From assembly GCA_012295275.1 (NCBI GenBank), contig CM022671.1:13888001-13952000 (forward strand): a stretch of DNA of 64,000 nt, given 5' to 3'. This document shows positions 1 through 39,837 of the stretch, piece by piece. The notes beneath the pieces were generated by a model that was not told where the DNA came from, did not search any database, and saw nothing but the letters and a program-made list of their open reading frames with translations. Made by a program: the position numbers and the translations under genes. Within the stretch, counting starts at the first letter, position 1. Every line of letters begins with the position of its first letter. The stretch is from Chrysomallon squamiferum (lineage: Eukaryota > Animalia > Mollusca).

Positions 1-341
1 TTAAAAGTATGCAATGGTATGAGTATCTTTATGGTGACAGACTCTCTCTTTGATTATAAACACTCTCTCCATAAACAAATGGTTAGTCCTTCCAGGCAGG
101 TTCTTATAATGCCTTGCCAATTGTACATAGTATCCCTACATCCTTTTGCTAAAATGGTCATAATAAAACAATACTTTGTTATGATGAATTTTTTAGGGGG
201 GATGCTTAGTGTCTCTGTGCTGGCTTATTTGATATGTGACAAAAGTAACTCATTTAAGTGTTGTAAGAAAAGTACTCACAGTGAATGTTTAAATTACAGG
301 AATCACAATAACAAAATAAATGCATTTTCCAGGTGAGTTAC

Positions 342-3300
342 CTTTTTCTTCTCTTCTGTGTTAATCTCTATCTCCAGCAAGTCAATGTCTGGTGGATCTT
401 TCATATAAGTCTGAAAAAGGTGTATATATATATATTTTTTTTTTAGATTTAAATTGCCATTCAGTTTACTGTATTGTTTAACATATACGATTTAAAAAAA
501 ATAAATTAAAAGAATACGATGGTGTACATAAAAAATTCCACTAATACTGTTAAAGCTAAATTAATTTCAGTTATATAAATGTTATTTTGAACAGTCTCAG
601 TATACAAATATTCTTCACAAATTAAATAAAGTATACAAAAAAATTGTCATTAATTTGAAAAGTATTGATGATTGGTTAAGCTCTTTAGCTGAAAAGCTTT
701 TAAACATTAATTTATTCAATCCAGAAACAACAAGAAATAAAAAATACATTTAAATCTTAATAACTGTAAAATTATGAATAGAATACAGAGCAATAAATGA
801 GGAAATATCTTACCCTAGCCTTGAGATTAGGATGAAAAATGATGTAACCATTCAGATTAATGGCAAAGGAATATCCATTTGGTCCAAGCTGAATACAGAA
901 AATATTCTATTATCTCAACCATGTAAATTCTTTGGTTATATTTCATATTTGAAGATTGAATATGATGCACTGTTTCATTTGTGATGTTTGTTTCCTTTTT
1001 GCTTTCGGTTTAAATTTTTCTGATGTAATAATTTTGTATTTATAAACATAAATTAATTTTTTATGCCATACAAGTTAACTTATATTTAAAATAATGTAAT
1101 ACAATTATGATCTATCACTTATGTTTACTATGTTTCACTTATATTTACTATGTATGACAAATTTAGTTTTATGTTACCTCTTGTTTTGGAGTTTTTTCTC
1201 TCATAGAATCAGTTGTTACATCAATTCCCATAACTCCAAGAATTGTCTGGTTGGACTGATAAAAAACACTCTTATTAAACATTTTAATAGTAACTGTTCA
1301 TATTGATAAACACATCAAAAAACAAAAGCAGAATTATTATTATATCTTTTTATCACTGCCTGATTACTGCCGATTTTAAAACATCTAAAATGAGAAAATA
1401 TTGTAAATGTCTATATAGTGGAGGTAAGTACTGATGTTATCAAATTTAAAGTAATTCTTCCTTCTGTTTTTTTTCCCCCTTTACTTCCTCATTATATTAT
1501 ATAAAACTACACTGAAAGTGTGTATCTGTCTGTATGTGTACATGGATGTGTAAATTTGCATGTGTCTGAGTGTGCATGCATGTCTCTTCAAAGACATCTA
1601 GATTATGTAGTTGTAAAGTTTAGCTATTAAAAACTCACTGAACCAATGGTTCGATTGTAAACTGGCAAAGTCACTGATGTCATCATTCCCAGTCCCTGAA
1701 ACATGTCACATTTAGTTTTATTTATTAGAAAAAACCCACAGTGAATCACCTGACTAAATAAATAAAAATGTTTTCAATCTTGTCAATTTTGTAACAAATT
1801 AATATAGTGGTATCCAAAACATATATAAAATTTAGAAATTTCTGAAGATATTTAAAAAATAAAGATAAAATATTTATAACAAATAAATGACTCAAATGAA
1901 TTATCATAAAATTATGCATCTGGTCTACAAATGTTGATGTATATTGAATATGTTGATGTATGTTGAATATTCTTTATCATATTTTTTAAAGAACAAACAG
2001 TTTTTAAAAATGATTTTAGTTAGTTAATTTCCAGAAGTAGAATATTATTTGAATTCTGTATTTATACATATAAAACAATATTTGAATGTAAAATAAAAAT
2101 CAGATAATATTAAAAATGAAAAAACAAAGATTTTAATTGAATAAAATTATTAATTAAGTAAAATCATGTGCATATTAATTATTATTGAACTATAAAGCGT
2201 AATAATAATATGTTAAGCATTAAATCGCATGCAAAATAATGATATGATAAAAACAAATAAAGTATAAACATATTATTCAAAAGCAAGCTGCATGCAAGAC
2301 AAATAATTTAAAAAGCATGCCAATAGTCAAACACAATGTATTAACACATTCCAGTCTATCTTCAACAGTATTTGAATAGTATTTTTTAAATTTATAGATT
2401 TTAGCTAATCTGATGTATCTTTTATCCTTACAACATATTTCAACATTTCAATAAGTAAATATTTTATAAATTCATAATTTTAAACATATTAGAAATTTTG
2501 AATTCAGTGTTATATTTAATTATATTTCTACTTTGTTATTTTCATACAGAATTATCATGTTTGATGTAACACAAGGTTTACCTGCAAGAGCATCCATTTT
2601 ATTTTCTCTTTACCTATGTAAAAGTATGTCTTTTTATTATTACATATAGCTGAATATCATGCAAAATAGTAGTTTTCTATTTTAGTCAGTTATTGGGTGT
2701 GTGTACTCATATATTTATATGTAGTACATATTTAGTTTACAACTATTTGTGTGAAATATACTACACAGTTTACTAACATCAAACACAGATAGGTGAATAG
2801 TGTGTGTGAAATAAAATTAGAACACTTTTGTTTATTTTTCTAAAATAACTACAATATATATTCAAAGTGTAATTCGTTTGTACCTTATTTCACCAATGAA
2901 ATAAATTTCAAATATCTAGATGTAGATATTATTTATGTAAAAAAGTATAATAGTTGATACTGCTAAGAAAAACAAGAATATTTTTTTAATCTTTAGCTAA
3001 TTTGAAAATAAAAACAAAACAAATTAATAATAATTTTAACAAGATTATAAGAATGTGAAAAATGTATCAAGTTTTTAAAGAGAAAATGTTCATGCTTAAA
3101 AAGAATAATAACAATAATAAAATACAGGAGAGATAGGAAAAGAAATAAACTCATTTTTTTTTAAATAATTTATTCTGATATATTACAATATTTCTATAGT
3201 AATACTTTTTATATTTTACTCATTTTATTTATTTTATTTGCTTAATATATTATTATTATTATTATTATTATTATTTTTAATGGAGATTTTAAATGGTGCT

Positions 3301-3572
3301 CAATGGACAGACAGACGATATGGACTATGACTTACAACACTATGAATGACACAACACTGAGTAAGAGGTCAAAGGTCAAAATACCAGATGATCATAATAC
3401 AAGTCACCCCAGTGGTAATGCTTCATGTCTAGCAGAACTTGAGGTCGACTTAGTACTGGTATGTAATCCTTCAAACAGAAGTTTCAAATAAACATACAGG
3501 AAATTTTATATAAAATTTATACAAGTTTCAACATAAGATGTTTGGCTGTTTGGGAAAACAATATATTTTTAA

Positions 3573-3608
<36 letters not shown>

Positions 3609-6600
3609 CAAAATAGAGAAATAAATGGAGTATTTTGATATACATAATATGTCTGTTAAAGGAAAACTTAGAGCCAAGTTACATAAATTTGAATTTTTAC
3701 TTGAACAAAGTCTAAGATTATGAGAATAATTACGAAGTATAACAATCTGATATATTTAGAAAAAAATGAAAATCAGTTTACAAAACAAAATGCATTTTAA
3801 GAAAAATGTGACCAAAAGCCATGAAAACAGTTTTCTTTTTCTTTTCAAATCTACACAATAAAGGTTCAAGTTTAAAAAGTAGTTGTCACAAGATGCTGGT
3901 AACTTATGTAACAAACACAAAAATGACAAAAACAAAATCAGGTCTCTCTACCTTATAACTAATCAACATTATCATCATCAATCATCATAGTCATTGTCAT
4001 AATCATTTTCCTGATAACCATATTCATCAACAACTGAAAAAATCTATTATTTCTTAATATATTATCTCCAAATATTTCTAAATCACTTCTCTAAAGCTGA
4101 TCAAATCTTTTCTTCCAATGTTTTTTTGTTGTTGTTGATATATAAACTAAATTGGATAATAATAATATTACAGACTGAAGTAATGGTAAAAACTCTTGTT
4201 GACAGTAAATTATATTGCATAATGTTTGTTTGTCAGTAAATACTAGAAAAGAAACCACTGTTAACTGAACTGAATTAACTTTATTAATTGAAAGAAAAAG
4301 ATTCTGTTAAGGAGATTAGTAGTTGATAATGATTAATTGCTGAACAGAATTTATAGTATAAAATTATAAAAAAAGATTTTAGTTCATGTTAAATATTTAT
4401 GTTTAGTAAATATTATTTTTCCATGCCCGAATAATAATGTAGTAACTGTATTTATCATGATGGCCAACTCTGATGAGAAATAAACATCATGTCATTTTAG
4501 CGGAAATGGCACATTTCCCATCTTATACAGAACTCTGTCAATATCAGAGGTCAGGTCCACTACAAGTGTACTTGAACAGTTTTATGACAAACGTCCAACT
4601 ACAGAGTGAGCAATGAAAAAAAAAAAGAAAAAAGGAAAATAATAATAATAATCCAGTAGGTAAATAAATAACTTAATAAGTAAATAAATACAAGTAAATA
4701 AGCATTCATTAAACATCTTGGACACTAACTTAAAAATGTTCTTTATTAATCTTCAGTAAAACCAAATAAATAAAAATCAGCAATGCATTGGATTATATGA
4801 TTAATAAAATTCTAGTCTTTAAATCAAATTTGGAAAAGTGGTAGAATTGCCTTGCGAATCATAACACACACTATTTCTTCACAACCACTTCTAAACTACA
4901 CAGTAGTATTGATACAACAGTACATTATTTGTAAATGAAAAAACTGTTGATAATTAAGGTCTGAATTTATAATCTATAATATTTCCTCAAATATTAAGAC
5001 AAAAAGTTGGCCATCATGAAATACATTTGAAACATTATGCTGTAAGATGCAGAAATAAGCAATAATTTTAAAAAATGAGGTTGAGAAAATGTTGTTTTGT
5101 TGGGTTTCTTCCATCTTTTTTACATGACATGCTTAAACTGGGATTCAGTTTCAACTCATTCTTACTCGGGGGTCAACAGTTACTGTCCAGTGTAGTTCAG
5201 TGCCATTAAAATATTCCTTAGGCCCATAAAATGCCTTAATGTATTCCTGTTAGAAAAAGTTAAAGCTGTCATATATAAATCCAAAACAAAATATTACGGT
5301 TATTGCAATAAGGACCAACAGATGCAAATGTATAAATGTAAAATAGTTGAAAGTGGCTTTTTTCTAATAAGATGATTTGATAAAGATATACTATTAATAA
5401 CATTTGCTTTATATCTGCATCTCTTTTCAATCAGAAGTCACTTACAATCTAATGATTTATGTGACATTTATTTCTATAAATCAGTATACTAAGAAAAAAG
5501 ATTTAAAAAAAGAAGAAAAAACAAATAAACAAATTGTAATGTTTTCTGTGTGGTTAAAAACTTTGATAAATTATTTACAAATGATATTTATGAAGGTACA
5601 CATGAAGTAAACAAAATGTACAGAAAATAAAAACCTAAAGCCTCCAACTGAAAAAAGAGAAAGAAGATTCTTTAAAATGTATACAAAGTTAAAAAATTAA
5701 TAATCATTTAATAAAGCTGATTCCAGCATCACCTGAATACAGATACTTATACCATGAAATGATAAAAACGAACTGAAGTTGTTAAATAAACACTGAATCC
5801 CACACCAGCTGTGTAACAATTACCGGTTTGTTTTCAGGGTTATTGTGTGGTGATATGCGACTACCAGACCACTGTGTGTGTTCAACATTTCTTATAGCAA
5901 GTGGTCGAGCCAACACATCATAGTATATCTAGTCAAAGAGTTCCAAATAACAGTAAGTACAAAATATCATATGTGCAAAGAATTAATATTTGCTTAATCT
6001 CATCATACTTTATTTTTAAAAGTGATCATATATGTATTTTATTACAACTTCCTATAATAAAAAAGTCAGACAAATATATATTTCTTTAGAGATGCACATA
6101 CAAATATATTTATATGATTATAATGGTTGGTAGGTAACTGGTAAAAGTATCTTTGTGTAAGAGAAAATAAAAAAATAAAATATCAAACAATTTACCTGAA
6201 CTTTTGCTCTAATAGCACCCATTGCAGGAATCTGTGAGAAAAACCCTGCAGCACAAAAACAAGTAATGAAATATACTTTTACTTCTGTTATTAACACATA
6301 TATAAAATACAGCCGACTTAATTTATACTCTGTTATGATCATTATGGAGATTAGTTGTTTTCAGTTAAAAGGTGCAGTGATGGTATTTCAAATATATTTC
6401 AAGAGTAATTTACTGATCAACAACTGATCTTACAGTGATGACTGCAGCCTTCTGTATGTCTCCCATCTCATTAACCCAATAATGTCATAAACACAAAATA
6501 CAATATCATTTTTACTTTTTTTTTTTTTTTAAATTTAATCAATAGTGATTTTTGATTACCTCTGTTTGCACATGCCATCCATCTGATAGCTGTTGTTGGA

Positions 6601-8743
6601 TTTGCTGTTGGTCCAATAGCATACGTGAAGACTCGAACCTGTAAATAATATATGATGTATGTTACTAGACAGTGTGCACTATTCATATGCCTCATACTAA
6701 ATATTAATGCTGGCCATTTTGGAATCAGCAGATAAAATTCACATGCAGAGTATCTGGATTTATATTTGGCAAAAGTCTGAGATTAAAGCTGTGAACTTTT
6801 AAAAATAATTACTAATGTTTTAGAGTCTTTTTTTTAACTTTCATTTTTAATATTTCCACATTATTTTTATATCATTATTATGGTCAAAATAAATTCTTCA
6901 ATGTCATCTTGATAAGAAATATGAATAAAAAATTGCATAAATTTATCTTTGTTAAGCAATGAACTAGTTTTTTTTATTTCTTTAATTTGTTATCTGCAGA
7001 CATCAGGTATACATGTTTATACAAGTTTAGTAAACTGATGTACTGGGAGCAATTTTTTTTTTTTTTTTTTTTAAATTTAAGTATGCATCATTCAAAGAAA
7101 AAATGAAAGAAATAAATGTGGCAGTCAAAATGCAGTTTTAATTTATTAACATTCATGCACAAACAAATGTGTTAGTTAGTGTTATTAGAAATAAAACAAG
7201 GATAGTACTTGTAATATATTAAAAATATGTTTCTGTTTTGGAAGAGAAGTGATCTGCATTTCATAACAAAATATCTCCCAGGCAGAAGTTGAAAATCTGC
7301 TGGGCAGAACTGTCTAAGAAGTATTTCTGAACAGAGTGAGTTTGCTGAAATCCTTGCTAAAACTGAATGCATGTTCATGACAAAATGTGTGATTAGAATA
7401 TGAAAATTTGTGAGCATCTCAGAAGATGTCGTGTGCACACACAATACCAAAGATGATCACATAAGACCATTAATCAGTGTCAGGAACAATTAGAAACAAA
7501 ATTACTATATATGAGTCAAATCTCACCAATTAGACTTGCTAAGTTGCATTTATTACACTATATAACCATTAATGTTCACTTTTCCTTTCTTTTATTTTTA
7601 CTTCTGTATTATTCTTACAAAATCCTTTTGTAGAAATAATAAGTGTTTATTTATTTATTTATTTATTTAAAATCCAGTATGTCCATTTTGCATTTATCTT
7701 GAATTCAAATCAATTTATGTGCAAAACTACATACTTTTGTTTTGTCTGTTAAATGTTTAGGGTTTTTTTTAAATATTATTTGTATTGTTTTTAAGGGTTT
7801 TCTTTTCTCTTTCTTTCTTTCCTTCTATCTTTTTTACTTTTTAATAAACATTAATTTTTGTACCCCATTCTTTTCTCTTTTATTTTAATAAAAAAATCAA
7901 TCACAACACCCCCCCAAAAAAAAACATTCTAGGAAATATTTTTGAAAATCCTGTAATATTTTATAATGCACAGGAAAATGAAATCAGTTACACCAATTTT
8001 TTTAAATTCATTTGTTTAGAATTTTTTTATCATTTTGAAATACTGCAATAAAAATGTATTATATTTACAACAATGAAAACAAAGTGTCTAGTTAAAATAC
8101 AAGAAAGAATTGTTAATAATAAATTAGCATTAAGTTATACCAAAAAACATAAATAATAATTACTATAGAAAATGCTAGTTATAGAGAAAGTATGACATAG
8201 ATAGATAGATAGATAGATAGATAGACAGATAGATAGATAGATAAACAGACTCTACTATATATATTTTTCTTCTATTGTTTAATATTTAAATTTCAAGATG
8301 CAATGTAATGTTTTGATAAATCAAGTGGTTATGTTTTTTGTTTTGGGTTTTTATGCTAAAGTGAAGGAGAAAGAATTAGAAAATTTCAAACAGCCAAAAA
8401 CAAAAATTATGAAACATTAGCCAAAACTGATTGAAAAAAACATTTTGTCTGTAACACTTCACTTACAATGTTCCTAATGACTCCTTTGTACTGTAATTAA
8501 AATTGTACATATTAATATGACTGCTTCTGTTCTATTATTTCAGGTAACATGATGTATATTGCACAAATAATAGACACTGTACTGATAAAAAAACAAGATT
8601 GGAAATTAAATATAACCACAGAGATAATTCACAATCGTTTCCATATTTTCCATTACAAAGCATAAGCTTGCAAAGTCTTCTCTGCAAAAATTAAATAAAT
8701 GATTTTAATCTTTATTTATTTACTTATTTATTTATTTTTATTA

Positions 8744-8781
<38 letters not shown>

Positions 8782-11700
8782 TTTCAGTGGGTTAATATTT
8801 GAATTATTAACTGAAATGACAATGAAAATACATAGATAAATTTGTTTTAAAGTGACTTCTGCATCACTATGAAGCATTTATAAGATAAATAACTATAAAT
8901 TTATAAATAAATCAAAAAAATTCCCTCAGAAGGTCATTACAATCAGAAACATCCTCCCAGAATAATGTGTTTTACAGATGTGTCAAAAATTATGTACTTA
9001 TCTTTTGTATTGTTTTATTAGTTCTGTTTGCATCAAAGAAAAAAACTAATTTAGAAATGTTCTCTTTGCTCATTTATCCTGTCTAAAGCAAACATTCACT
9101 GTGATATTTTAATTATACAAATTATTTACACATGTATTAAATTGTTCAGTCAGTGTGAGTAAAATATACATTTTTATATTGATAACATTACATTGTCTTA
9201 TTTGGTCAAATTTCAGAATATACTTCTATAATTATGTGGGTAATTTAAAAATTAAAAATAAAAATAGGATAAGTAATACTTGATCAAATATGTATTTTTA
9301 ATTAAAAACCCTTAAAAAATTTAAAATAAAACCCACAACCCAAAATATTATTTTGTCAATGAAAAAAACTGTGAAAAAAAACATATTGTAGTATTCAGTC
9401 AGAAAATGAAATCTGCAATCCAAGAAGAGTACATATAGGCATGTCCTGCATTAAACAGTGAAATTAACAGTGTTAAAGGTAAATACCGTTTTGTTAGGCC
9501 AGTTGTATTCTTCAAAAATTTCTTGAGCATTGTCTGTTCCTCCGTCTGTCAGTAACATAATCACCTTGTTACACCCAGAGCCTGCATGTGGGTCGGTTCC
9601 ATTTCCAAACTACAATAAAAACAATAATCAGCTGTTTCAAGTGCTTCACACACACATGATGCTATTCATATGTGTGTCTTTAAAAAGCAATAAAACTATT
9701 TGTTTTTGATTTTACATTTTACATTTTAATTTCATAGTGGTTTATTTAAGATTCAAATATGTTTTGTTCTCACAAATTGAATCAACAGTCAACAAAACAT
9801 ATTTTGAGTATTGCTGTTTTTTTTGAAAAAATTGTGAATCTGTCAATTTTGATATTTTTCCTGCAAACTATTCTTTAGCTCTCCCTTTGTCAATTTCAAA
9901 TGTAGATGGTGTCTAAATTTTTTTCCCCTGCAGTATTAAGTGACTTCTGTAAAGAGGTGACAATTCATGCGCTAAACTGCATTGAAAACATGAGGGGAAA
10001 TGACAAGTTTGCATGCTTTCTATTTCGGTAATTTTGAGACAATTCCTGACAAACCAGGCATCATCTTTCCATATATTGGCATCAACAATAATATCTGTCT
10101 TCTTCAGCCTCTTAGAACTCCCTCCCTGTAACGTTCAGCAGTGTAAACTATTGTAGTCACATGGTAGCAACAACAAGGTCACACCCCTAGCAGTTGATCT
10201 CATTGGTTCTGTGAAAGGTCATTTAATAAACCTACAAATAAACACGTGTGTATTGCCTATTTCCACTGCATGGCAGCTGACCTAAACAAATGAAACGAAA
10301 CAAACAGCAGCACTGAATGTTGTTAGAATAATGAAAATGATCTTGAACAGTTCGACTGTTTGATTGAAGAATATATTTTTTTGGAGGATTTGACAGAGAG
10401 ACAGATGAAATTGACCACTTGGACTGTAGGAAAATGACTTGCAAACTGCAGTGGAAGCAAAAACAGAATACACCTGCTTCAGAAATGGGGCACAGTAGGA
10501 AACAAGCAGGGTTCATAGATCTTCCTTATCACCTATTCCATGTAAAATGTTATTTTGTTTTTATTGGTTAGGAAAGAAAACAATATTTTTACTGTTATTG
10601 TTCAGTGATTCTTTGCCTTGAAAATGTCCATACTTACATAAGTAGATATAGTCTTTGTTACCAAACTTAATAATTACATAACCAATTGTTTTTCAATATA
10701 AAAATACTTAGAATATATTATCTTTAAGTTATTAGATTAGCCCATTTAATTTTCTCTATCAGAGTAACTTATTTTCCTTTTTAGCAACACCGATGGAAAT
10801 TACACAGGGACAATAAATTATTTTATTATGAATTATTTCTAACAAGAATATTATTTAACTATTAATAAAGTATGAAGAAAACGGCACTGACTGGTCTAAG
10901 TCTGATGTGTCTTGTAAACCAAAGGATAATGGTAGTGTAGGTTCTTGATAATGTAATAAAAAAAAAAAATTAAATCAACAGCATTTTGCCTAATAATAAT
11001 ATTATATTCATATTAGCAGATTATGATAACAATGTTGTTTTATAAGTTGGCAGAATCTGATCAAGACCTGTCCATGGTAACTAAGACAAATACCCCAAAA
11101 TAAACAACATTCTGTGAAAGCCATTTTCTGCCATATCTCTCAATAGAACTGATGGATCTTCTATTATGTTATATTGTAAGAAAGCAGAAATGTTGCTCCT
11201 TCAAGTTGTACTAACAACTCATTTTGTAATCTTTCCAACAAGTGACTCATTTTTTGAAAATGCTACACACATTATCATTTTATTTTTAAAAAACCATATT
11301 ATATATATAGTATTATAATTCAACAGTGAATTGTCAGCATGATACCCCAAAACAAGTGCATCATCAAGAGAGAGGGGGAGAGAGAAAGAGAAATAGATTG
11401 ACAGAAAATGGGAAAGAGAAAAAAATACCTTCTTAAACTGCTCAAATGCAAATCTGAGACCAACTTTATAATTTGCCATTCCACCTGCTTGAAGTCCATC
11501 CACATCTTTTGACAGCCTCTGAAAAAATTAACAAGAAATTGAAAAACATTTCAAACCTAACACGTATAATTGAATAAGGTGTTTCTAGAATATGAAACAG
11601 AATAAATATAAATGAAGTTATGGAATGTGTTATAATGATGTAATCAAAGATGTGAGACTGGAGAAGAATTCCACACTCACCTGCTTGTTACGATGATTAG

Positions 11701-14700
11701 CTTGTACAAAAGGTGTATGATTGAAACAGGGACTCACAAACTTTGCTTCTTGGGCAAACTGTTAAAACATGATAAAATATAAGAAAAAGATATTACAAAC
11801 ATAATTACTTGATTATGATGAAGTAAAATGATTAACAAATAGGAGATTTGTTATTGTCAGTATATATATATATATACATATATATATATAACTGCATTTA
11901 AAATAATATTATATTTGAAAACAAATGTATATTAACACCATTCTGGTTTGCACAGTGTATTTGATCAAGTCAAAACGAAGTTGCTGGATGAATTATAGAG
12001 GTTGGATATAACCAACAGACTACTTTATTTAATGAATTAATTAATTTCACATGATTAACTGCACACCTATGACAACATATTTTTCTCTGACACCGAACTG
12101 TATAATTTGACATATTACACATGAATCATAACATAAAAGCCACGTGTGTGTCTCTCTGTGTAACACACTGTTATAGTCAAATTTGGATAACTTGAGAACC
12201 TCAGTCTATTGTGCCAAAAGTCTGTACCTGCTCAGTTCCTATGAAAATTAGTAATAATAACTTTTGTAGTTAAGTGACTCATATTTGTTTGATTACAAAC
12301 AAGTGTAGTGTATCAAACATACTACTTGCTTCTTAAATCCCAGTTAATGTTTACACATCTGTGAACATTCTCAAGAAATGTTAATGATTTTGTGTGCAGA
12401 CACTGTAATGAAAGACGATTTCTTTAAGAAACAGTGCAGTGTTTCAAAACTAACTTTTCAGGATAATGATATGTATGGCAGAAATAATAATATAACTAGA
12501 TGTATCACTTAACTAATTTAGTTATAGTATCTTCCTTGTATTACCATGTATGTGACTTTAAATCTAGTGATAGTAAAATTTCAGTACAGATTAATTACAT
12601 TCTGTCAATTATAGAAATCTGAAAATACATGAACTTCATATTTATTTCTTGCTTTCAGTTTATCCTTTTGGTAATGTACATGGATTGTTTGTGTGTGCTG
12701 TTTTATATCTCAATATATACATTTTCATATACATGTACATAATTTATTTGTGTGCATATTTATTTAGTTGTGTTTTTCATTTATTTTTGTTAATTACTTA
12801 GTTAACTAAATGTGAAAGAGTGTGTTTCTTGAAATATGAAACATACATTACTAATCTCTCAGAACTGGAGGAAATATTTAAAATTCAAATAATCAAACTC
12901 CCTGAAATTTAAGCTGTTTTTGTTCGACTTAGCAAAGTTGGAATGTAACAGATTTAACAGACTTGGTAACAGATTTAACAGACTTGGTAACAGATTAAAC
13001 AGACTTGGTAACAGATTTAAATGTCAGAATCAAGATGTGTAAAGAACAATAAATAACCGTATTGTAAATAACAAGTAACTTACTTCCACAATATTTACAA
13101 AATCATTTTCTCCTAACGTGTCAAGAATAGATTTCACTGTCACCTTCATCAGCTGTAGTGCCTGACCATGAGTGCTGCCACTCCTACAGACAAACGTAAA
13201 GTATCAACAAACAAACAAGCAAGCAAACAAATAATAACAAAACCTACATTATATATTGCTAGTTTTATGTGGGTCTATCTTTTCTTGTTTACTGCATATC
13301 ATAACAGGATATATTTTGAAAAAAACAGAAAATAATTTAGACTGGAAAAAGTTTCACATACTTAGAATTAATATTATCTGAATTAAATGTCAACATTTTA
13401 ACAGACAACAATTATATACCTGGAAATATATGAATAACCAAATAATATTAATAAACAGTTAAATTTATATCAGTATAATAACAATAATACCTACTTGTCA
13501 ATAACAATCATCATATCTTTTGGTGAACTTGACCCCTGAGTATACCTGAAATTTAAATAACAACAGATCAGAACAAAATTACTGAATTTATTTACATTGC
13601 TATTGTTTGTTTGTTTATTTCTGGGTTTCATTTTGTACTTTTTAATTTTATAATAATTATTATTATTTAATCACTGTTGAAAAATATTTTAAAAATTCTG
13701 ACCAGCCAGAATAGTGAAAGATTATATTAAAATGTTTTTCAAAATTTATTCTGAGGCAACAGAACAATACACCACCTTGTAAACTAGTATATATTTATAT
13801 TTATACTGTAAGAATACTTTGTTTTATTAATTGTCAGTGGCTTACCAAGATTGCCTTCTTACATCGTACATATCAACTTCACCGTGTATCTTCCATTTAC
13901 TGGCTGGAAGTATGAATAACATGTAATACATCAGTTATGTCACTAGCACATGTTAAAAAATGTCTGAAATCAATTACCACATTCTTTATTACATTCTCAC
14001 TATAAAGTATGTAACAGAAATAAAATCAACAAAACTGATTATATATAATATATGAAAAGCTGAAAAATATATGTACATACATACAGATGTAAACATACAC
14101 CAATGTGAATACATACACTCACATACGCACATACATTCATGCATGCATATATATGTATGTACATACATACATACATACATACATATATACATACATACAT
14201 ACATACATACAAAGATAAATATATACATTACAGACACATTTGAAATTTGTACATAATTATATATCTTCAATATCCATGAAAATTGTCTTCTGTGATTCAC
14301 TTGTGATGCAATAAAGTCCTCTGAGAGGTTAAACAAATTCATATTAATAAATTATTAAATTTACTTGGAGAAATTAAAAAATATATATTTACCTTAAGAC
14401 CTTAAGTAATATTTATCTAGATATATTATATTTCAATTACAATTAATTTATTTTCAGAAACTCAAACAAATAAAACTGTCTGTAAAATTAAATTTTCCTT
14501 ACACCGTACAGAGACAAATGCATTTACCTACTAAAAGTTAAGGTAGAAATTAATTTAAATTTACCTGGAAAGGTTCTCATAAATCCAGTCATACTGCCAA
14601 AGTATTGCCAGAGAATTTCTTCATCTTTGTCATAGTTTACTTTAAAAACAGGATCCAGCTTAGCTGTCCACTGCAAACCATTCAAGATGTCAATGTCTGA

Positions 14701-17700
14701 AAAACAGATACACATACAGACCATCACAGCTCACTGATTTACTTACAGGGAACTTTTCCTTGTACAACATATTTCATCTGTATATATATTTTTTATATTT
14801 CCAAATTCTTGTTTTATTTGTTCCTGGCAAAAAAGGTCTTTGCTACTAGAAAACAAAAAACTAAACTAAGGGGCTGTTTTAAAACAGAAATCTGATACAT
14901 TTTCAAGTGACTATTTATTACATGATACCAATCTTTAATAACAGAAAACTTTGAAGACATTTTCCAAATTAGATAACAAGATACATAAAATAATTGTAAA
15001 CATTACAAAGTTGCTATTATTTACAGAACTTCTTTCCTGCATTATTTTATTCTGACATATGTATTTTATTTTTTCTAATAAAATCAAAACTTTTAACATT
15101 TATTTTTTAAATAATTAATTCATCATCTGCCATGTAACTACCTTCATTAAATAAAAAGCATTTAAATTGATATATATAACTTTACACAACAGCTGATTAA
15201 AAAAATGAAAAACATCTTACAGTTCAATCAGTAAGTAACATCACAGAAGGAATACATCATTTTAAATCATTAAGCAATCTTCTCAGTATTTTTCTTTTTT
15301 TAATATTTATTTTATCATATTTAGATAAATATAAAATAGATGCCTTAATTTTTACTATTTTCTTTTCTTTTTTTCTTTTTTAAAATTCTTTTTGATTAAT
15401 AACAATTAAAAATAAGAAAATAATTACAAAATTCAACTGAAAAGAGAACTTTCACAATGCTGCAAGAAGTTAAATGACAACAAAACAAATCTGCCAGTGT
15501 GTCAATGCTACAGGGTGTGGTGGGTGAGAGGAAGGGTGTATTCATTCTCTCTAAGTGCCTGAGTTTCTATGCACTAACATTTAAAAAGAATCTCTCTATG
15601 TCTTACCTACACACATGTACTTGGTCAAATACTGTCATGGGTACAGGTATGTGTACACAAATATATGAACACACTGACACACACACAAACACACACATAC
15701 ATAAACATATACACATACATACACAAACATACATACCCATACTCATGGAAACTTACACACACATACAAAAACACATCCATGCACACTGACATTTCTACAA
15801 GTTTTTAGTAAAAAGATATTTAATTAATTTTCTTTGACAGTTACATACTTTATATTCAGAAACAACATTTCACATTATTTTATGTAAATTTACTTTTTCT
15901 TAAAGTTTCAGTTATTCTTTTGTTACACATGACTTCCTCTTCTGTGTACATCGTTTATGAAAAAAAACTTGAGGTTTCATCACAGTATATATTGTATTTC
16001 AAACATACATCACAGTGATATATTAATTCTGGAAAACTGGAAAGATTCTATTTTTTCCCCATATATAAATCATATATTTTTATCTAATGTTTGACTAATA
16101 TATTACAAATGAATTAAAATGGACATGCTTGCAAATATCAACAGGCAACCAGAGCTTAGCATTACTTTCAAAATACAGTAGAACCCAGTTATAATGTTTA
16201 AAGTTCTGACCCATCATGTCAAGACTTCTTTAAATTCCAACATATTAGTTTTGGTGGGGTTTCTTGGGTTTTTTGTTTTTTTTCTCTCCTTTTAACTCTT
16301 TTTCACTTTTATCTCTGCAATAAAGTAAAACATTCTGTGTTTTAAAAAGTAATATATGTGGATGACATTACTGTGCTATAACAGGTTCCACTGTAGTGAT
16401 TACAAAAAACTAATGAGGTGCCAAGCAATGGAAAATGAATAGTGAAATGTAAATTAATATGTTTTAAAATATAGCATGTTTCAAAATGTGACTGGTTTTT
16501 AAAAGATGAGTGTTTTTTTGGTTGTTGTTTTTTCATTTTATTTAAAGTTAATTTACACACTTGAAAAATCATAAATTATGCAATGTTAATCACAATATGT
16601 TATGTTTATTCATTTATGTATTCACTGTCCTGTTATTATTACTATTATTATTATTATTGTAAGGAAATTTAAGAAAAAACTATCTACAAGATTTAAACCA
16701 CTGATAGTTATTAATATATAAAATGTTGAAGTTTTTCATTAAATATCCAGTTATCCTGAGAATAATATAAATGGTTAAAATTTTATTTTACCCTATTAAT
16801 TCTACATTTGAAATGAATGAATTAAACAAAACCAAAATGAACAAAGACAAATATTAAGAATAAATTTTAGAATATTTAATTTAAATTTTGGCTTAATTCT
16901 GTTTGATGTTTTTTTTTTTTACGTCTATATTTATTGTAATCCCTTCCTCAAACCCTCAATACAAATGCAGCATTTGACTAAGCATTCAAATGCAACTTGA
17001 CAACAACTACAACTATGTTGTACACTGAAACACTGAGAAAGTTGTCAGGTACCTCTTGCAGATTTGCGAATCAACATCGTGCAACATACAACTGAAAACA
17101 ACGAACAGAAGAGAAAGCTTTCAAAACAGTAAAGATTCCTTTAAAATAAAATGAGAACTTAACATTTTTCTTTCACTAAAATCATTTCAGTGTTATTCAG
17201 AGGTGAACAATGTTTTGGGGAAAGCAACAACAGAGAATGCAAAGTTTTGGGTGTGTATTTGTAAAAGATGATAGGAAATAAATATTAATTAGACATGTCA
17301 TATATCAAACATATTTTTAGTATGTTCTCAAAAATAGTATTATTACATAATATAACACAATAATCAAAACACACGCACATATATAAATATACACACACAC
17401 ACATATCAATATTACACATACAGACTTCTAAAGGAAAAAGCTAAATAATTAAAACTTAATCATACACCTTAATAAGTAAATTAAATAACATACAGGCCTA
17501 TCATAAACCCTGCTATTGAAATGACTATACCCAAAACTAAATGAGTGCTAAAAGAAATTCTGTTTTGTTTGATTTTCTTTACACCTGAGCTTACCTCCAT
17601 CATAGATTTCCACAGGTATGTGAATACTTGAGAATGAGTCGTTAATTTTCTGCTTGAACCGTTCACTGTATGACAGATCAACATCCACCATCTGCTTACT

Positions 17701-20700
17701 GTCATAATACTGAACATCTTTTTTCTGAAATTTAATTTTATTTAAATAATAAAAACTTTGATGTATTTATTTATTTTTAAAAAAAATACATCAAAGTTTT
17801 TATCACATAAAAATTATAAGTTGTGATAAACTGTAATGTATTTTATATATTCTAGAATTCTGTGCACTTCATACTCAGCCATGTATGTCAATGTTTTTCA
17901 TGCATATTAATTTTATTGCTTAGTTTACATTACCAAACCTAGTAATGAAATGATTAGCATCACTGATATTAGTGAAAGGGAAACAATTCTTCTTATTTTA
18001 AGGTATTTTCTGTTAGTAATAACAGTAAAAAGATTTTGGCAAACATAAACAACAACATATTTTTTATAATAATAACAATAATAATACCAACAATGAGTAT
18101 GATAATAATCATAATTAAACTAATAAATGAGAAGAAGAATAACAACAACAATAATAAATACGTTTTAAAAATGTAAGCAGAACTGATTTTGTTTACACTG
18201 TCAAAAGAAAATAAATGGACAAAATGGTAAATGATAGAACAAAGAAAATAACTGGAATATGTAAGTAAAAATCTAATAATAAATAAATAATAATAATAAT
18301 TTAAAAAAATAAAATAAAATAAAATACAAAATTAAAAACTGGGTGTAATGAAAATATCGTTGAAGTAATTCTAGCTACCTGTAATGAACCATTCCACACA
18401 TGTTCAGCTGCTGCAGCTTCTGCAACTCTCACTGACTCCTGCAAAAAAAAAAAAAAAGATTTAGTTACAACACTAATACAGTTGTTATTTGATATTGATT
18501 TTTCTGGTGTGTTTGTGACAGAAATATAAAATGAAAAACAGAGTGAGAAAACATTTGAAAAAGGAGAGAGTTATAGAGAAACAGAAAGATAGAAAAATAG
18601 AAAATGAGAGATGGAGAAAATATAAAAAAGAAACAGACAAATAGAAACAATGAGACAGAGTGATAAAAAAACTGAATAAAGAAACAATGAAAGAGTCAAA
18701 AAGAGAGATTATATATAGAGAAATACATTATAGAGAGAGAAAGAAAGTTAAAGTTAAACACAGAGTGAAAGAGACAGAGAGAGAGCACGAGAGCCAGATC
18801 CAACTTGTTTTTTTTGTATTTTATTTCACAACCATGATAGATAAGGGTACATTTATTATTATTTTATGTATATATATATATACTTACATACATGTATTTG
18901 TTGTTTTTTTCACTATATTTTAACACATCTGTACATAATTTCATATCACATTAATATCTACAGAATCAGTTCATAAACTCAGATAAAAATGTTTTGAAAG
19001 AGAAAGTTCTTCTGTTTCATTTCTAAGTTAGGACAGGATTAATTCATTAATTATCTATTTTCAAATAACATGCTTGTAACATCAAGAAGGCAGCTAACAC
19101 AATAACTGTTTGAGCTGTCTGCTATATAAAATTCAGCTCTATCTACTAACCCGTAAATAATCCATTTTCTTGCCAAACATGTATGACAAATCTTTAGACA
19201 TTTTATCCACAAGCTCACTTCCAACCACCTTCTTAAAGTTTACATTAACATCCACAGATCCAGGACTTGGCTTTACAGCATTTTCATATGCCTGAAAAAA
19301 AAAGTGAAAAATATACTAATTATCTGTCTTTAAGAACTAATAACAATAAATAAATGATATTCCTTTTCTGATCTCTTAGATCCTCACAAGCATTACTGAT
19401 CTAGGCGGTCAGCCAAAAATAATCAGACCTTGGATAACTACAAACTTGGTCAAATGCATCATGGGACCACTAATTATAGGAATTACTACTTCTCTGACTA
19501 GCACATATATCAGTCAGAGACAATTACTATAACCTATTACACAGTACTACAGTGTCACAGAATACTACAAATGTTTAATAATGGTTACCACCAGTCATTT
19601 CAGTGGCATCTTATTACCCAGGAGACAACAGCCACCCAATAACTAGTCTCTGACCAAGATTCTGTTGCAGACAATAAAGAAATATTGGTCAGATGATTAA
19701 ATAACAGACATTGGTTAGTTGTAACTTGACTGCCAGTATATAACAGTGTAATAAGCAGGTGCTAAAGTTTGGAATCATTGAGGAATGGGCTGTGATTAGA
19801 CTGCTGGTAGAAGACTGATGGATTACAGCAATGCTCAGAAACCTTTCTTTGTGTATTGCCCACTTTAAACATTGAAAGACTGGAATGTCCACCAAGCTTA
19901 CAATAATTTTGGAATTATCGGAATGACATTCAGATAAGTTTAAATAAAAGTTTAATTAATCTAGTACCGCTTTACCCTAGTCCAGACAGAATTTGAGATG
20001 CACTTGAAATTTTCAAATCAGTTAATTTAGCAACCAAGGGGAATTGGTGAATTGTTCGTCCAAGGATGAGTAAAATGAAATTTCCAGAACCATAAGGAAA
20101 TATTTTTAAGTGTGAATGAAATCTTGTGATAATGACTAAATGGTAAATAACACTGAACTAGTTTAAAGAGGCATTGGTGTAAGAAATATACTCACCAAAA
20201 CATGTTTTATTTGTTTACTGCACAGGGCAATACAAAATTATTTCTTTGTAAATTAAATTATTCCAAATAATAATTTAAACTGAACACTTCACTATATGGT
20301 AAAAACATATTATGATAAACCAAAGATTGTGTTATAATCTATATAATGTAACACTAAAGTGGCAACTATAGAGACAGGGGAAGTCAAAAAGGAATTATTA
20401 AATGTGCTCAATGTCATATTTATATTATTATATTTTTAACAAGGAAATTAATAAGGAAATCCAACACTTACCAGTGCAACTGTGTTGTAACCAGAGAGAT
20501 TGGAAATCCACATACTCAGTTTGGCATCCAGTTTATCAGCCCAGGACTTTACACTGTCAAGATACAATAATAACAATAATAATTATATAAAAAGATTTAC
20601 ATTCTTAATAATAATACTAAAATCCTACAATTAAGTAAATAAGATAATAATTATGAGATATAAATTACATAGAAAAATTGTCTCCATTGTGCCATTTTCC

Positions 20701-22533
20701 ATAGCAAATAACCATCTCACTGATCTGTAAAAATGTTCAAGAAAATACAGACAAATGGTTCAAAGCAACAACAAATTGTCATAAAGAATCAGAAACAGTT
20801 CCACTAATTTATCTGTAAAACACTTGTTACAAAATCACATTACTGGCATTGTGACTTAATTACCTGAATTACTATAAAGATATTATTAAATTAAAACATT
20901 TTCACAATAACAGCACTTGAGTAAACTGTAACTTGCACAATTAATGACTTGATTAGTAACTCTTATTTCTTTTATCTGATCTAATTGTAGAAAATATATT
21001 ATTTTACTTACACTGTTAATATAATATTAAAAATGCATTTTGATGTTATTAAACTGAACATTTATTTACGTGTTATACTACCTCATATTATTTACATAAA
21101 ACTTTCTGTCAGTACTAAGTTATTCTCATTACTTCTTATTACCTGATTTAATTACAGCAAATCTATTATCCTATATATAAATAAATAAATAAATAAACTA
21201 GAAAAACTGAACAAAACTGTCATATATAAACAGTGTTGGCATGTAAATATATAAATAAAATTAAAATTAAAAATTAAAAAAGAAAATGTGTCTTTCTGTA
21301 ACCATAACCTTTCTTTTAAAAATTAATGTTATGTAATACAACAGAAATACTAATGTAACAAGCTGATATGAATAACGAACTTAACACTGTACAAAATACA
21401 TGATAAATTCTCTTGGGGAAACAAAATAATTTCCTTGTTCAGTATTTTGGCAGTATGTTGCACTCTGACTCAGATATTTCTGTTATGCAATATCAGTCAA
21501 ATCTCAAAAATATTCATGATGATAATAAACCTACTGGTTTTAAAAATAAAACAAATGTAATATGAAACAGCATCACTATGGACATATATTTATAAACACA
21601 TTACTACAATGAATTACACTGACATTTTACAAAGTGAGATTTTCTATCCTGTGTATCACAATAAAACACAATGTAAGTTAATTGTACTACTGTGTATCTA
21701 CTTGTCCCAGTTTGATATTTATTGATTATATACCATGAGTGTACATGTTGTTAAGTCTTGTAGGATCAATAAAAATTAATATGGATGTATACAGAATGCA
21801 TGTAGTAGTGTTATTAAATAAAAGCAATGAGGATTTAGTTGTTTATGTACATTATTCATCCATACTGGTATACAGTTTGTAACAGAATGAGATAAAAGGG
21901 TAACATTACATTCTCTGTATAATCTGTCAAAATCTAGAACATTACATGAATACAGACATTTACAGTGAATGTGTTTTTTATCAGTAGCAACTGTAGGTGT
22001 AATAGTAGAAGCAGAGGTGATAATAAATAGTTGTATAAATAAATAAATAAATGCACACAGAACTGTAAACTACCAAACAAAATTGTTTTATTAGTTTAAT
22101 TACATACTGGTTTTCTTTTCATTATTAAAAAAAAGAAGAAACCCCCCCCAAAAAACCCCAGCATAGTGTAATTACTATTTAAAGCTAAATCTACTGTTTC
22201 ATTTATTAAATGATGAAACAGACAGAAATGGGTACTGGAATACAAAAAGGAAATAAGATTTGTACCAGGATATATATATATATATAGTAATTACACTATG
22301 TTTGTATTTACAATTTTATGTTTAAATAGATATATAGTACAATTAATTTCTAAAATGAATGTATATGAATAATATAGATATACATACACACATACATATA
22401 CATATATGTATGTATGTATCTTATACACACACACGCACACACACACATATTTAAAAAATTTGATTGATGGAAATTAGGATTCAGCGCAGTTAGTGTCATT
22501 CAGCTTTACAATCCAAAACATCTCCCTCTCTGT

Positions 22534-22568
<35 letters not shown>

Positions 22569-23249
22569 ACCATAATAATAGGTAACATATATATAACATA
22601 TAATGGCATACAGAGGTATAGTGATACCCAAGTCCAACTCCTCAAGTATAAGGCCTAGTACTAAGGAATATTAGGAGAAAGGAAGGTATTCTGAATATGT
22701 AAACACAGATGAAATATAAAATAAACACTTTATTCGATTTAATATAAATAACCAAATGTATCAAGTTCAATGCCCCCCTATTTGGACGCCCGTGGGTAGC
22801 CGCTTCACCCTGCCCCCGAACGCCACTGATAACGTATTTGGTATTGCCACTATTACAACTGTTAAGTAATAATATTATTATGTGCGTGCAGAATAATCGG
22901 ATCGTGTTGACAGTTAACACTGTACAATACACTGACGCAGTTTATGTTATAAACAGCTGAGCAATGCGTTCACGACGTTGATACTGATAACTGATGCAAG
23001 GAGCTCGCTTGCACTCATCTGAAAGAATGTGTTCTATACTTGTATAATTAATACCAGTAGGACTGTCGTGAAGCGATCCATTCTGCGCAATACACAAAAT
23101 GAAAATTTAAACAAAGAGAAAAAAAAAATAATAATCTATAATTACCTTTCGAAGGTCGGAAACTGAAAGCTGTGAGACACAGTACAACTTTTCAGCAGCA
23201 ATAATATAACGAGCGACAGGGAGAACAACCCGCATTTCGCTGTCGCCAT
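342..23249 (-). CDS. CACNA2D: Voltage-dependent calcium channel alpha2delta subunit (CACNA2D family); 3' part lies beyond the left window edge
   Basis: Phase-consistent GT-AG exons on the minus strand: 23146-23249 (signal peptide [22 protein letters not shown]), 20472-20553 (VKSWADKL), 19151-19291, 18379-18438, 17595-17724 ([12 protein letters not shown]), 14565-14696 ([24 protein letters not shown]), 13846-13903 (MYDVRRQSW), 13495-13545 plus 13084-13183 ([28 protein letters not shown]), 11681-11758, 11429-11518, 9487-9609 ([12 protein letters not shown]), 6560-6638 ([16 protein letters not shown]), 6196-6245, one of three alternative exons 15, 1639-1695 ([14 protein letters not shown]), 1178-1255 (ILGVMGIDV), 814-888 ([22 protein letters not shown]), 342-410. 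The motifs match alpha2delta Cache/VWA architecture. Confidence 0.95.
3385..3468 (-). CDS. CACNA2D: CACNA2D alternative exon 15c ([28 protein letters not shown]), closest to the canonical sequence
   Basis: Acceptor TTCTGTTTGAAG|GAT, donor CTG|GTATTT, 84 nt, phase 0-0. It aligns to vertebrate EYLDVLGRPMVL..QWTNVYLDAL. Confidence 0.85.
5166..5246 (-). CDS. CACNA2D: CACNA2D alternative exon 15b ([27 protein letters not shown])
   Basis: Acceptor TTTTTCTAACAG|GAA, donor CGA|GTAAGA, 81 nt, phase 0-0 and open. It keeps the EY..P..W..D skeleton of this exon. Confidence 0.75.
5824..5928 (-). CDS. CACNA2D: CACNA2D alternative exon 15a ([35 protein letters not shown])
   Basis: Acceptor TTTGACTAG|ATA, donor CCG|GTAATT, 105 nt, phase 0-0 and open. 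Its first part aligns to vertebrate EYLDVLGRPMVL...QW. The donor position is less certain. Confidence 0.75.
12172..12947. mobile_element. Possible decayed pogo/Tc1-type MITE
   Basis: Left end TATAGTCAAATTTGGATAACTTGAG versus reverse complement of the right end TACATTCCAACTTTGCTAAGTCGAA: imperfect TIRs with TA termini. Confidence 0.35.
12945..13020. repeat. 21-bp tandem repeat (GTAACAGATTTAACAGACTTG), about 3.5 copies
   Basis: Visible directly; unit starts at 12945, 12966, 12987 and 13008. Confidence 0.9.
22770..22828 (-). mobile_element. GC-rich hAT-like MITE terminus in CACNA2D intron 1
   Basis: The reverse complement begins CAGTGGCGTTCGGGGGCAGGG, resembling hAT-derived MITE ends. The other end was not identified. 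Confidence 0.3.
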
Positions 23250-34119: not shown

Positions 34120-34727
34120 ATTTTATTATAAATATGTCGCCGTTCTGAACCACCTTTATATTTCTACCTACATATGGTATCTGATTTGTTATGTGTTACT
34201 GGTTTGTTTACCAACAATGATAAAAAAAAAATCAATAAAAAAAAAAGCCAAAAAAAAAGCAATAAATTATTAACTTTAAATATCTTAATAATAATAAATA
34301 AGCTTTCTTGTCTTGCAGGAATATCTGACAGTGACGTCATCTACCCTGTTCAAAGCAACCCGGCATCAGATATATTTTCGAGAGTTCGTCATTGTTGTGC
34401 CTAAACACTGGAAAACAAAGAAGTATTACAAACCGGCGGCTGATGCAGAAATCACGCATGCTCAGATTGTGGTGGACAAAGAAAACCCTGCTTACGGGGA
34501 TGCTCCTTACGTGAAGCAGTACGCTGAGTGTGGGCAACCCGGGTTATACATGCACCTCACTGTTCCCTACCTTATAGATGACAGAGTTACTTTTCGGTGG
34601 GGACTTCCAGGTGAGAAAAATGTAACTTGGCCATATCTGAGTCACCGTCGAATATAATTTATTGCATATACATGCCTTTAACTTGATATTTTATTTGACC
34701 TACTGTATGTAGAGCCGCGGGCACGCG

Positions 34728-34770
<43 letters not shown>

Positions 34771-34808
34771 CATACATACATACATATATACATACATCAT
34801 ATACCCAT

Positions 34809-34842
<34 letters not shown>

Positions 34843-39740: not shown

Positions 39741-39837
<97 letters not shown>

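What the first reader, a model, noticed from the sequence alone, without database searches (positions are those of the whole stretch)
3385..5870. The alternative exons rewrite the dCache1 amino-acid/gabapentinoid binding pocket
Established: the alpha2delta-1 ligand pocket is built from the YDVRRRPW segment before the VWA domain plus the WTNVYLDAL Tyr/Asp and the GVMGVD Asp after it (the dCache_1 amino-acid-binding motif split by VWA). Seen: 15c keeps W...YxD (WGDLYYDHL). 15b keeps Asp but loses Tyr and is one residue shorter (WTVTVDPR). 15a loses both and adds a longer polar/proline loop ([16 protein letters not shown]). Inference: one gene makes alpha2delta isoforms with an intact, an altered and an abolished small-molecule pocket, a splice-controlled ligand-sensing switch on a Ca2+ channel subunit.
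Basis: inference. Interest (0 to 1): 0.75.

Follow-up and report, generated by a model that had tools for sequence, protein, structure and literature searches.

The report
Swappable pocket-lid exons in snail α2δ
A snail calcium-channel helper subunit (α2δ) carries three interchangeable versions of the exon that likely forms the lid of its small-molecule pocket; the exon trio is already known in molluscs, and because this gene lacks the key amino-acid-binding arginine in every version, the swap would likely change what fits the pocket rather than switch a normal amino-acid or gabapentin site on and off.

Summary
The three exons are real. 15a (5928-5824), 15b (5246-5166) and 15c (3468-3385) are in-frame tandem copies in a gastropod α2δ gene on the minus strand. 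RNA contigs show 15b joined straight to exon 16 in 3 of 4 runs (one study), and exon 14 to 15b in one. All three exon types recur across molluscs, and the trio is already in print for Aplysia, oyster and octopus (PMC5818475). The exon aligns to 4 of the 13 residues lining the α2δ-1 ligand pocket, and each type keeps its own residue at the Tyr450 position: Tyr in c (15/15), Thr in gastropod b (10/10), mostly His in gastropod a (9/11; Arg here). But 'intact / altered / abolished' fails. The carboxylate-binding Arg241 lies in constitutive exon 7 and is Gln here and in 17 of 18 gastropod proteins (Arg in 29 of 29 others), and Val207 is Tyr, so no isoform has a canonical amino-acid or gabapentinoid site. 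Exclusivity looks leaky (24 of 80 RefSeq models carry two exons or none). Structure models were inconclusive. Verdict: known exon cluster, pocket link not found in print, ligand effect untested.

The parts
342..23249 (-). α2δ (CACNA2D-like) gene, coding exons 1-19 in this window; the gene runs on past the window's left edge
   Evidence: exon model with AG/GT ends and an open frame of 546-554 codons; VWA_N Pfam hit on exon 6, E 6.5e-16; RNA loose end beyond exon 19
14565..14696 (-). constitutive exon 6: pocket positions W205 (W), V207 (Tyr here, 14604-14602), A215 (Met), Y217 (Thr)
13846..13903 (-). constitutive exon 7: N-terminal half of the amino-acid motif, YDVRRQSW; Gln (13853-13851) stands for Arg241
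6196..6245 (-). exon 14, last constitutive exon before the cluster (end of VWA)
   Evidence: spliced to 15b in run X3
5824..5928 (-). alternative exon 15a, 35 aa; Arg (5859-5857) at the Tyr450 position, no Asp452, polar/proline tail
   Evidence: groups with a-type exons of 33-36 aa in 10 other gastropods; not covered by the RNA lay, so its junctions are not shown in this organism
5166..5246 (-). alternative exon 15b, 27 aa, ending D-P-R; Thr (5180-5178) at the inferred Tyr450 position
   Evidence: 15b-to-16 joint in RNA contigs of 3 of 4 runs; 14-to-15b in X3; b clade 20 of 21 rows, support 100/99
3385..3468 (-). alternative exon 15c, 28 aa, canonical W...Y-x-D (Tyr 3399-3397, Asp 3393-3391)
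   Evidence: 89% identical to the Gigantopelta exon, c clade 15 of 15, support 96/98; one unspliced low-depth contig only
1639..1695 (-). exon 16, first constitutive exon after the cluster; Ser (1677-1675) at pocket position T461
1178..1255 (-). constitutive exon 17 with the motif Asp (D491; 1222-1220, GVMGID)

Best explanation
This gastropod α2δ gene holds three tandem copies of the exon that follows the VWA domain, likely used mostly one at a time, and each copy would build a different wall and lid on the first dCache1 pocket, which likely is no longer a standard amino-acid site in any isoform because Arg241 is Gln in a shared exon. Shown: the three exons, their frame, the 14-15b-16 transcript, their conservation as three types across molluscs, the Gln and the Tyr207. 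Inferred from alignment to α2δ-1 structures: the exon gives the helix after VWA, the strand carrying Tyr450 and the β3-β4 loop that covers the pocket. Inferred mechanism: 15c gives a near-canonical amino-group side (Tyr450, Asp452, with the shared Asp491); 15b gives a roomier pocket (Thr) closed by a shorter D-P-R turn that brings a basic residue to the lid; 15a gives a His/Arg contact and a longer, probably mobile lid. Splice choice would thus tune which small ligand fits or how tightly the lid shuts, and through that the trafficking of α2δ and its channel, by tissue or cell type. It is a specificity swap, not an on/off switch of a gabapentin-type site.
For: Exon anatomy and no fourth copy. 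RNA: 15b joined to 16 in 3 of 4 runs, 14 joined to 15b in X3. Single-exon a, b and c isoforms are annotated separately in Haliotis, Pomacea, Littorina, Physella, Biomphalaria, scallops, oyster and Octopus; 56 of 80 RefSeq models carry exactly one exon. Exon types cluster by type, not species (c 96/98; b 20 of 21 rows 100/99; 4 label changes against a shuffled mean of 29.2). Pocket lining includes Y452, D454, A455, L456 (rabbit) and the β3-β4 loop covers the site (bioRxiv 2022.12.05.519047); register. Type-specific conservation at the Tyr position: Y 15/15 (c), T 10/10 (gastropod b), H 9/11 (gastropod a); b keeps D in 19 of 21 and a terminal Arg/His in 20 of 21 although its first 20 residues are only 25% identical among gastropods, i.e. 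selection is concentrated on the pocket end. R241 is Q in 17 of 18 gastropod proteins, R in 29 of 29 others.
Against: No binding or channel data for any isoform. AlphaFold2 models of the Haliotis a and b isoforms have pLDDT <50 over the exon and its neighbours (420-468 and 421-460), and no c control was folded, so the register in 15a (anchored on Trp) and 15b (anchored on Asp) is unconfirmed. About 20 of the exon's residues lie outside the pocket and differ too. In mammals amino acids alone did not change α2δ-1 surface expression (PMC9901441) and ligand binding caused no visible conformational change (PMC10761187), so the pocket may signal nothing. RNA evidence here covers only 15b, from one study. 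16 of 80 models carry two exons and 8 carry none.
Confidence: 0.5

Rival explanations
1. The exons matter for something other than ligand binding: the helix and loop after VWA set the VWA/Cache geometry, folding, trafficking or a surface for protein partners; the pocket is vestigial in gastropods after Arg241Gln and its changes ride along.
For: Most of each exon is outside the pocket. R241A also lowers trafficking-dependent current in mammals and kills drug binding, yet gastropods fixed Gln. The a-type kept Tyr in 9 of 9 non-gastropods and lost it only in gastropods, the lineage that lost Arg241, as relaxed constraint would give. Known α2δ splice variants in cache domains act on synapse wiring.
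Against: c keeps Tyr and Asp in 10 of 10 gastropods and is the most conserved type (77% over the first 20 residues); b conserves its pocket end, not its helix; gastropod a has a conserved His rather than random residues.
Confidence: 0.3
2. One reading: 15c gives an intact amino-acid/gabapentinoid pocket, 15b an altered one, 15a none, i.e. a splice-controlled on/off ligand sensor.
For: 15c alone keeps Tyr450 and Asp452; Y236, W243, W223 and D491 are present. R126A in PctA lowered affinity 61-fold rather than to zero, so weak amino-acid binding by 15c is possible. In bivalves and cephalopods Arg241 is kept, so this reading fits them better: c, d and octopus a have Y-x-D, b does not.
Against: Arg241Gln, Val207Tyr and Tyr217Thr in all isoforms of this gene; R241A abolishes gabapentinoid binding; V209Y is predicted to fill the gabapentin ring's space.
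Confidence: 0.13
3. In this species 15a (or 15c) is a decaying or rarely used exon and 15b is the working form.
For: Only 15b junctions were seen in RNA. 15a has the lowest acceptor score of the 20 internal exons (-2.1), a long end branch (0.95) and Arg for the conserved His. A search with the 15a frame found nothing.
Against: 15a is open, of normal length (35 aa; relatives 33-36) with a strong donor (9.9); 15c is 89% identical to Gigantopelta; the runs are shallow, from one study, 15a was not covered, and contigs show presence, not absence.
Confidence: 0.07

Closest known systems
Three mutually exclusive α2δ exons between VWA and Cache in Aplysia, Crassostrea and Octopus (PMC5818475, Table 1 and Fig. 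1 legend)
   Same: Same place, same number, same types (the table's end motifs DSL, DPR, DSH, DRS match the c, b, a and octopus-b types).
   Different: That paper only lists the exons; in the parts I read it does not tie them to the ligand pocket, test them, or note the gastropod Arg-to-Gln change.
dCache_1AA amino-acid motif of α2δ-1/-2, YxxxxRxWY...Y[x27-34]D (PMC8915833; bioRxiv 2022.12.05.519047)
   Same: Y236, W243, D491 and (15c only) Y450 are present; VWA splits the motif in the same way.
   Different: R241 is Q, V207 is Y, Y217 is T, A215 is M in all isoforms; the Y450 half is alternatively spliced, which is not so in the mammalian variants described (regions A, B, C are cassettes/acceptors elsewhere in the cache domains).
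Mammalian α2δ-1 splice variant ΔA+BΔC with lower gabapentin affinity (PMC3988960 search listing)
   Same: Splicing in the cache region changes ligand affinity.
   Different: There a cassette away from the motif is dropped; here pocket-lining residues themselves are exchanged by duplicated exons.
Bacterial amine sensors dCache_1AM, e.g. PacA with Q165 at the R126 position (PMC10104139)
   Same: Loss of the motif Arg (Gln in PacA) with the aromatic pair and the last Asp kept, and a variable Y144 position.
   Different: No alignment to the AM motif was made here; the R103/D133 helix and cation-π cage were not tested. A lead only.
C. elegans UNC-36 pocket (bioRxiv 10.64898/2026.09.15.751774, passages)
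   Same: Arg241 lost (Thr) with Arg residues appearing at 451/453, like the Arg at the end of 15b and at 450 in 15a.
   Different: Fixed sequence, not a splice choice; docking and simulation only.

Membership tests
α2δ (CACNA2D) subunit | VWA_N, VWA, Cache and VGCC_alpha2 domains in order | tested here: met
   exon 6 hits VWA_N (E 6.5e-16); Haliotis orthologue isoforms hit VWA_N, VWA and VGCC_alpha2 above cut-off, dCache_1 below it; all named hits of exon 12 are α2δ-like or VWA proteins of gastropods
α2δ (CACNA2D) subunit | α2δ fold | tested here: met
   model of the Haliotis b isoform (a stand-in, not the window's protein) matches α2δ-1 chains, TM 0.72-0.75 over the query
α2δ (CACNA2D) subunit | MIDAS motif in VWA (DxSxS...T...D; definition recalled) | tested here: inconclusive
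   DKSGS and TDGG present; the Thr of α2δ-1 aligns to Ala
α2δ (CACNA2D) subunit | δ part with C-terminal GPI signal | not testable with these tools
   the gene's 3' part lies outside the window and no genome is held
dCache_1AA amino-acid-binding pocket | Tyr236 and Trp243 | tested here: met
dCache_1AA amino-acid-binding pocket | Arg241 (binds the ligand carboxylate) | tested here: not met
   Gln, CAA at 13853-13851; Gln in 17 of 18 gastropod proteins
dCache_1AA amino-acid-binding pocket | Tyr450 | tested here: inconclusive
   met in 15c; Thr in 15b and Arg in 15a by alignment, register not confirmed by models
dCache_1AA amino-acid-binding pocket | Asp491 | tested here: met
   constitutive exon 17, 1222-1220
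gabapentinoid-sensitive α2δ (α2δ-1/-2 type) | small residue (Val) at 207 leaving room for the drug ring | tested here: not met
   Tyr here and in 40 of 47 proteins tabulated; none of the 45 that could be read has Val; clash predicted
mutually exclusive tandem-duplicated exons | homologous tandem exons, same phase, replacing one another in transcripts | tested here: met
   single-exon models in relatives
mutually exclusive tandem-duplicated exons | strict exclusion (never two, never none) | tested here: inconclusive
   16 double and 8 skip among 80 RefSeq models, which may be minor junctions or modelling artefacts; no double joint
mutually exclusive tandem-duplicated exons | a forcing mechanism (steric spacing, frame shift on co-inclusion, conserved RNA pairing) | tested here: inconclusive
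   introns of 577 and 1697 nt and all lengths divisible by 3 rule out simple spacing and frame shift; the 25 longest inverted repeats are A/T-rich or microsatellite; introns of relatives not available
dCache_1AM amine-binding pocket | AM motif (aromatic cation-π cage, M/S pair, R/D helix, Asp) | not tested
   only the Arg-to-Gln parallel was noted from the paper's text

The most novel reading that the evidence does not exclude
Gastropods have re-purposed the α2δ pocket: after losing the carboxylate-binding Arg (as bacterial amine sensors did) it binds a natural ligand other than a plain amino acid, such as an amine, betaine-type osmolyte or transmitter, and three ancient exons choose which ligand a cell's calcium channels respond to. 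This would be the first natural α2δ ligand switch, and molluscs with Arg (octopus, bivalves) and without (snails) would form a ready-made series for finding what the pocket is for.
Probability: 0.15. Interest if true: 0.8.

Novelty: new member of a known kind. Interest (0 to 1): 0.42.

Why it matters
What the amino-acid pocket of α2δ does in normal physiology is open: amino acids occupy it but were not seen to act alone (PMC9901441). A lineage that has kept three or four alternative pocket lids across gastropods, bivalves and cephalopods, each with its own conserved residue at the Tyr450 position, suggests that the pocket is under selection and supplies natural variants to test in Aplysia or Lymnaea neurons. 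It also predicts that snail α2δ is insensitive to gabapentinoids. The exon cluster itself is not new.

Tried and rejected
No genome is held for the window. A PDB sequence search with 15c alone found nothing. A protein search with the 48-residue frame holding 15a found no hit (weak evidence, 2 candidates). RNA: the laid stretch (300-5400) does not reach 15a or exon 14, and showed no spliced 15c junction; contigs from one study show presence only, and 26 loose ends and 69 pieces were not listed. AlphaFold2 on mixed 67-sequence alignments gave pLDDT <50 across the exon in both a and b isoforms, and also on neighbouring constitutive residues, so I draw nothing from it; the outputs carry no coordinates for a pocket superposition. 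Frame-shift and steric exclusion rejected. A fourth exon copy, including the open frame at 4581-4495, rejected (score 30). An alternative 15a donor was considered; the 35-aa form fits the 33-36 aa of relatives. No Dscam-like pairing found. In one search the Gigantopelta c segment was cut too long by my pattern; only its first 28 columns entered the tree, and I do not use the mean alignment scores from that call. Two look-ups of earlier findings returned nothing. The journal version of the gabapentin structure paper is not held; the preprint was read instead. No complex prediction was run: the question is a small ligand, which that tool cannot score.

Full report
OBSERVATION. The window is AT-rich animal DNA (GC 23-37% in 2-kb bins). 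A minus-strand gene from 23249 to beyond position 342 resolves into exons with AG/GT ends that give an open frame. Between exon 14 (6245-6196) and exon 16 (1695-1639) lie three phase-0 exons: 15a 5928-5824 (35 aa), 15b 5246-5166 (27 aa), 15c 3468-3385 (28 aa). All three have Trp at residue 20; over the first 20 residues they share 4-7 identities. Any one, any combination, or none keeps the frame. Scoring every open frame between exons 14 and 16 against 57 homologous segments gives 113, 97 and 68 for the three exons and at most 37 for anything else.

WHAT THE GENE IS. Exon 12 retrieves 14 proteins; the 13 named ones are gastropod, annotated as α2δ-like or VWA-domain proteins, Gigantopelta closest at 85%. 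Exon 6 hits Pfam VWA_N. A model of the Haliotis b isoform matches α2δ-1 structures. No genome is held, so the organism is placed only as a gastropod.

ARE THE EXONS USED? RNA contigs of four runs from one study were laid on 300-5400. The joint 15b-to-16, skipping 15c, appears in 3 of 4 runs; in X3 the loose end beyond 15b is exon 14, so 14-15b-16 is a real transcript. No spliced 15c joint was listed (one contig of depth 2.5 runs from 15c into its intron), and 15a lay outside the laid stretch, so its use in this species is not shown. In relatives, single-exon isoforms of all three types are annotated in Haliotis, Pomacea, Littorina, Physella, Biomphalaria and Octopus, three or four types in scallops, oyster, Mytilus and Dreissena, and two variants in the nemertean Lineus. 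Of 80 RefSeq models in 13 molluscan sets, 56 carry one exon, 16 two, 8 none (only 15 of the 36 members of the Mytilus cluster were listed). Exclusion is therefore probably leaky or the models include minor junctions. Neither spacing (introns 577 and 1697 nt) nor frame enforces it. A tree of 59 exon peptides (31 columns, rough supports) groups them by type rather than species: c 15 of 15 (96/98), b 20 of 21 (100/99; the octopus b falls elsewhere on a very long branch), a paraphyletic; each window exon falls with its type (type labels were my own assignment). The cluster thus predates the gastropod-bivalve-cephalopod split (Cambrian, date recalled).

DO THEY TOUCH THE POCKET? The gabapentin-bound structure lists 13 lining residues (rabbit numbering, human minus 2): W207, V209, Y219, W225, Y238, R243, W245, Y452, D454, A455, L456, T463, D493, and says that the β3-β4 loop covers the site. 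Aligning the Gigantopelta c isoform to that chain puts Y452, D454, A455, L456 in the last five residues of exon 15. At the Tyr position: c has Tyr and Asp in 15 of 15; b has Thr in 10 of 10 gastropods and never Tyr (0 of 21), keeps Asp in 19 of 21 and ends in Arg/His in 20 of 21, although its first 20 residues average only 25% identity among gastropods (a 52%, c 77%); a has His in 9 of 11 gastropods (Arg in this window, Glu in Elysia) but Tyr in 9 of 9 non-gastropods. The registers for a and b rest on alignment (Trp anchor, Asp anchor); AlphaFold2 did not resolve the segment (pLDDT <50).

The motif is YxxxxRxWY ... Y[x27-34]D. Its Arg binds the ligand carboxylate; R241A abolishes gabapentin and pregabalin binding, and R126A lowers PctA affinity 61-fold. 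This gene reads YDVRRQSWY: Gln at that place, in constitutive exon 7. In one protein per species, Gln stands in 17 of 18 gastropod proteins (the exception is a partial second copy in Candidula) and Arg in 29 of 29 other animals. Val207 is Tyr here and in 40 of 47 proteins, the change predicted to fill the space of the gabapentin ring in α2δ-3/4. The Asp that 15a loses is D452, a lining residue outside the motif; the motif Asp491 is shared by all isoforms. So none of the three isoforms is a canonical amino-acid or gabapentinoid site, and 15a replaces Tyr by a conserved basic/imidazole residue rather than by nothing.

MECHANISM. I commit to a specificity or lid swap on a non-canonical pocket (0.5): shown are the exons, one transcript, the conservation and the substitutions; inferred are the geometry, any ligand, and any effect on channel trafficking. 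The main rival (0.3) is that the exons act through the helix and surface loop on folding, VWA position or partners; mammalian data that amino acids alone do not alter trafficking and that ligands cause no visible conformational change keep it alive. Decay of 15a or 15c here (0.07) is not excluded. Two parallels make a changed ligand thinkable: bacterial amine sensors lost the same Arg, PacA having Gln, and C. elegans UNC-36 has Thr there with new Arg residues at 451/453; both are leads, not tests.

WHAT IS KNOWN. [quoted passage not shown] 1 legend; Fig. 1B itself not seen; its one supplement gave no hits). Eight literature searches showed no paper that ties these exons to the pocket or reports the gastropod Gln; the library lacks most subscription journals. 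Read: PMC8915833 parts 1-4 of 5 (supplements not read; its Dataset S3 and Fig. S16-S17 on motif loss may list molluscan sequences), PMC9901441 parts 1-3 of 5, bioRxiv 2022.12.05.519047 parts 1-2 of 3 (supplements not seen), passages of bioRxiv 10.64898/2026.09.15.751774 and PMC10761187, passages and two sections of PMC10104139, and a term search in PMC10657410 (no occurrence). Earlier findings of this scan: none.

VERDICT. Observation partly confirmed (exons right, 'given' motif wrong), interpretation partly supported. A new member of a known molluscan exon cluster, with an apparently unpublished and testable link to the α2δ ligand pocket. Interest 0.42.

Noticed in passing
window 13853-13851 and homologues: Arg241Gln (with Pro242Ser) of the α2δ amino-acid motif is a gastropod-wide fixed change: 17 of 18 gastropod proteins against 0 of 29 others; it coincides with Tyr-to-His in gastropod a-type exons.
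   Followed up: partly
window 3249-3275 and 3573-3605: Exon 15c is flanked by opposite (ATT)n/(AAT)n arrays that fold into a stem of about 33 A-U pairs looping out the exon. Uniform-placement chance 0.006, but 2 more such pairs occur elsewhere among 11 AAT arrays in the window, so the null is too lenient; could damp 15c use.
   Followed up: partly
window 34298-44757, + strand: A CLCA-type gene (Pfam CLCA E 7.8e-22 and VWA hits, ending in a hydrophobic stretch) lies head-to-head upstream of the α2δ gene.
   Followed up: no
P0113, P0134, P0054, P0153 (bivalves); P0056/P0140 (Lineus); P0064, P0066, P0071 (annelids): Bivalves have a fourth, 25-aa exon type that keeps Y-x-D; Lineus has two alternative versions; three annelid gene models show tandem-like extra sequence at the same place, so duplication of this exon may be lophotrochozoan-wide or recurrent.
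   Followed up: partly
window 11518-11429 (exon 11): The residue aligning with the MIDAS Thr of α2δ-1 is Ala in this gene and in Gigantopelta (MIDAS assignment recalled).
   Followed up: no
P0013 (Candidula): A partial second α2δ copy in this land snail has Arg at 241 together with a b-type exon: a possible reversion or a retained paralogue.
   Followed up: no
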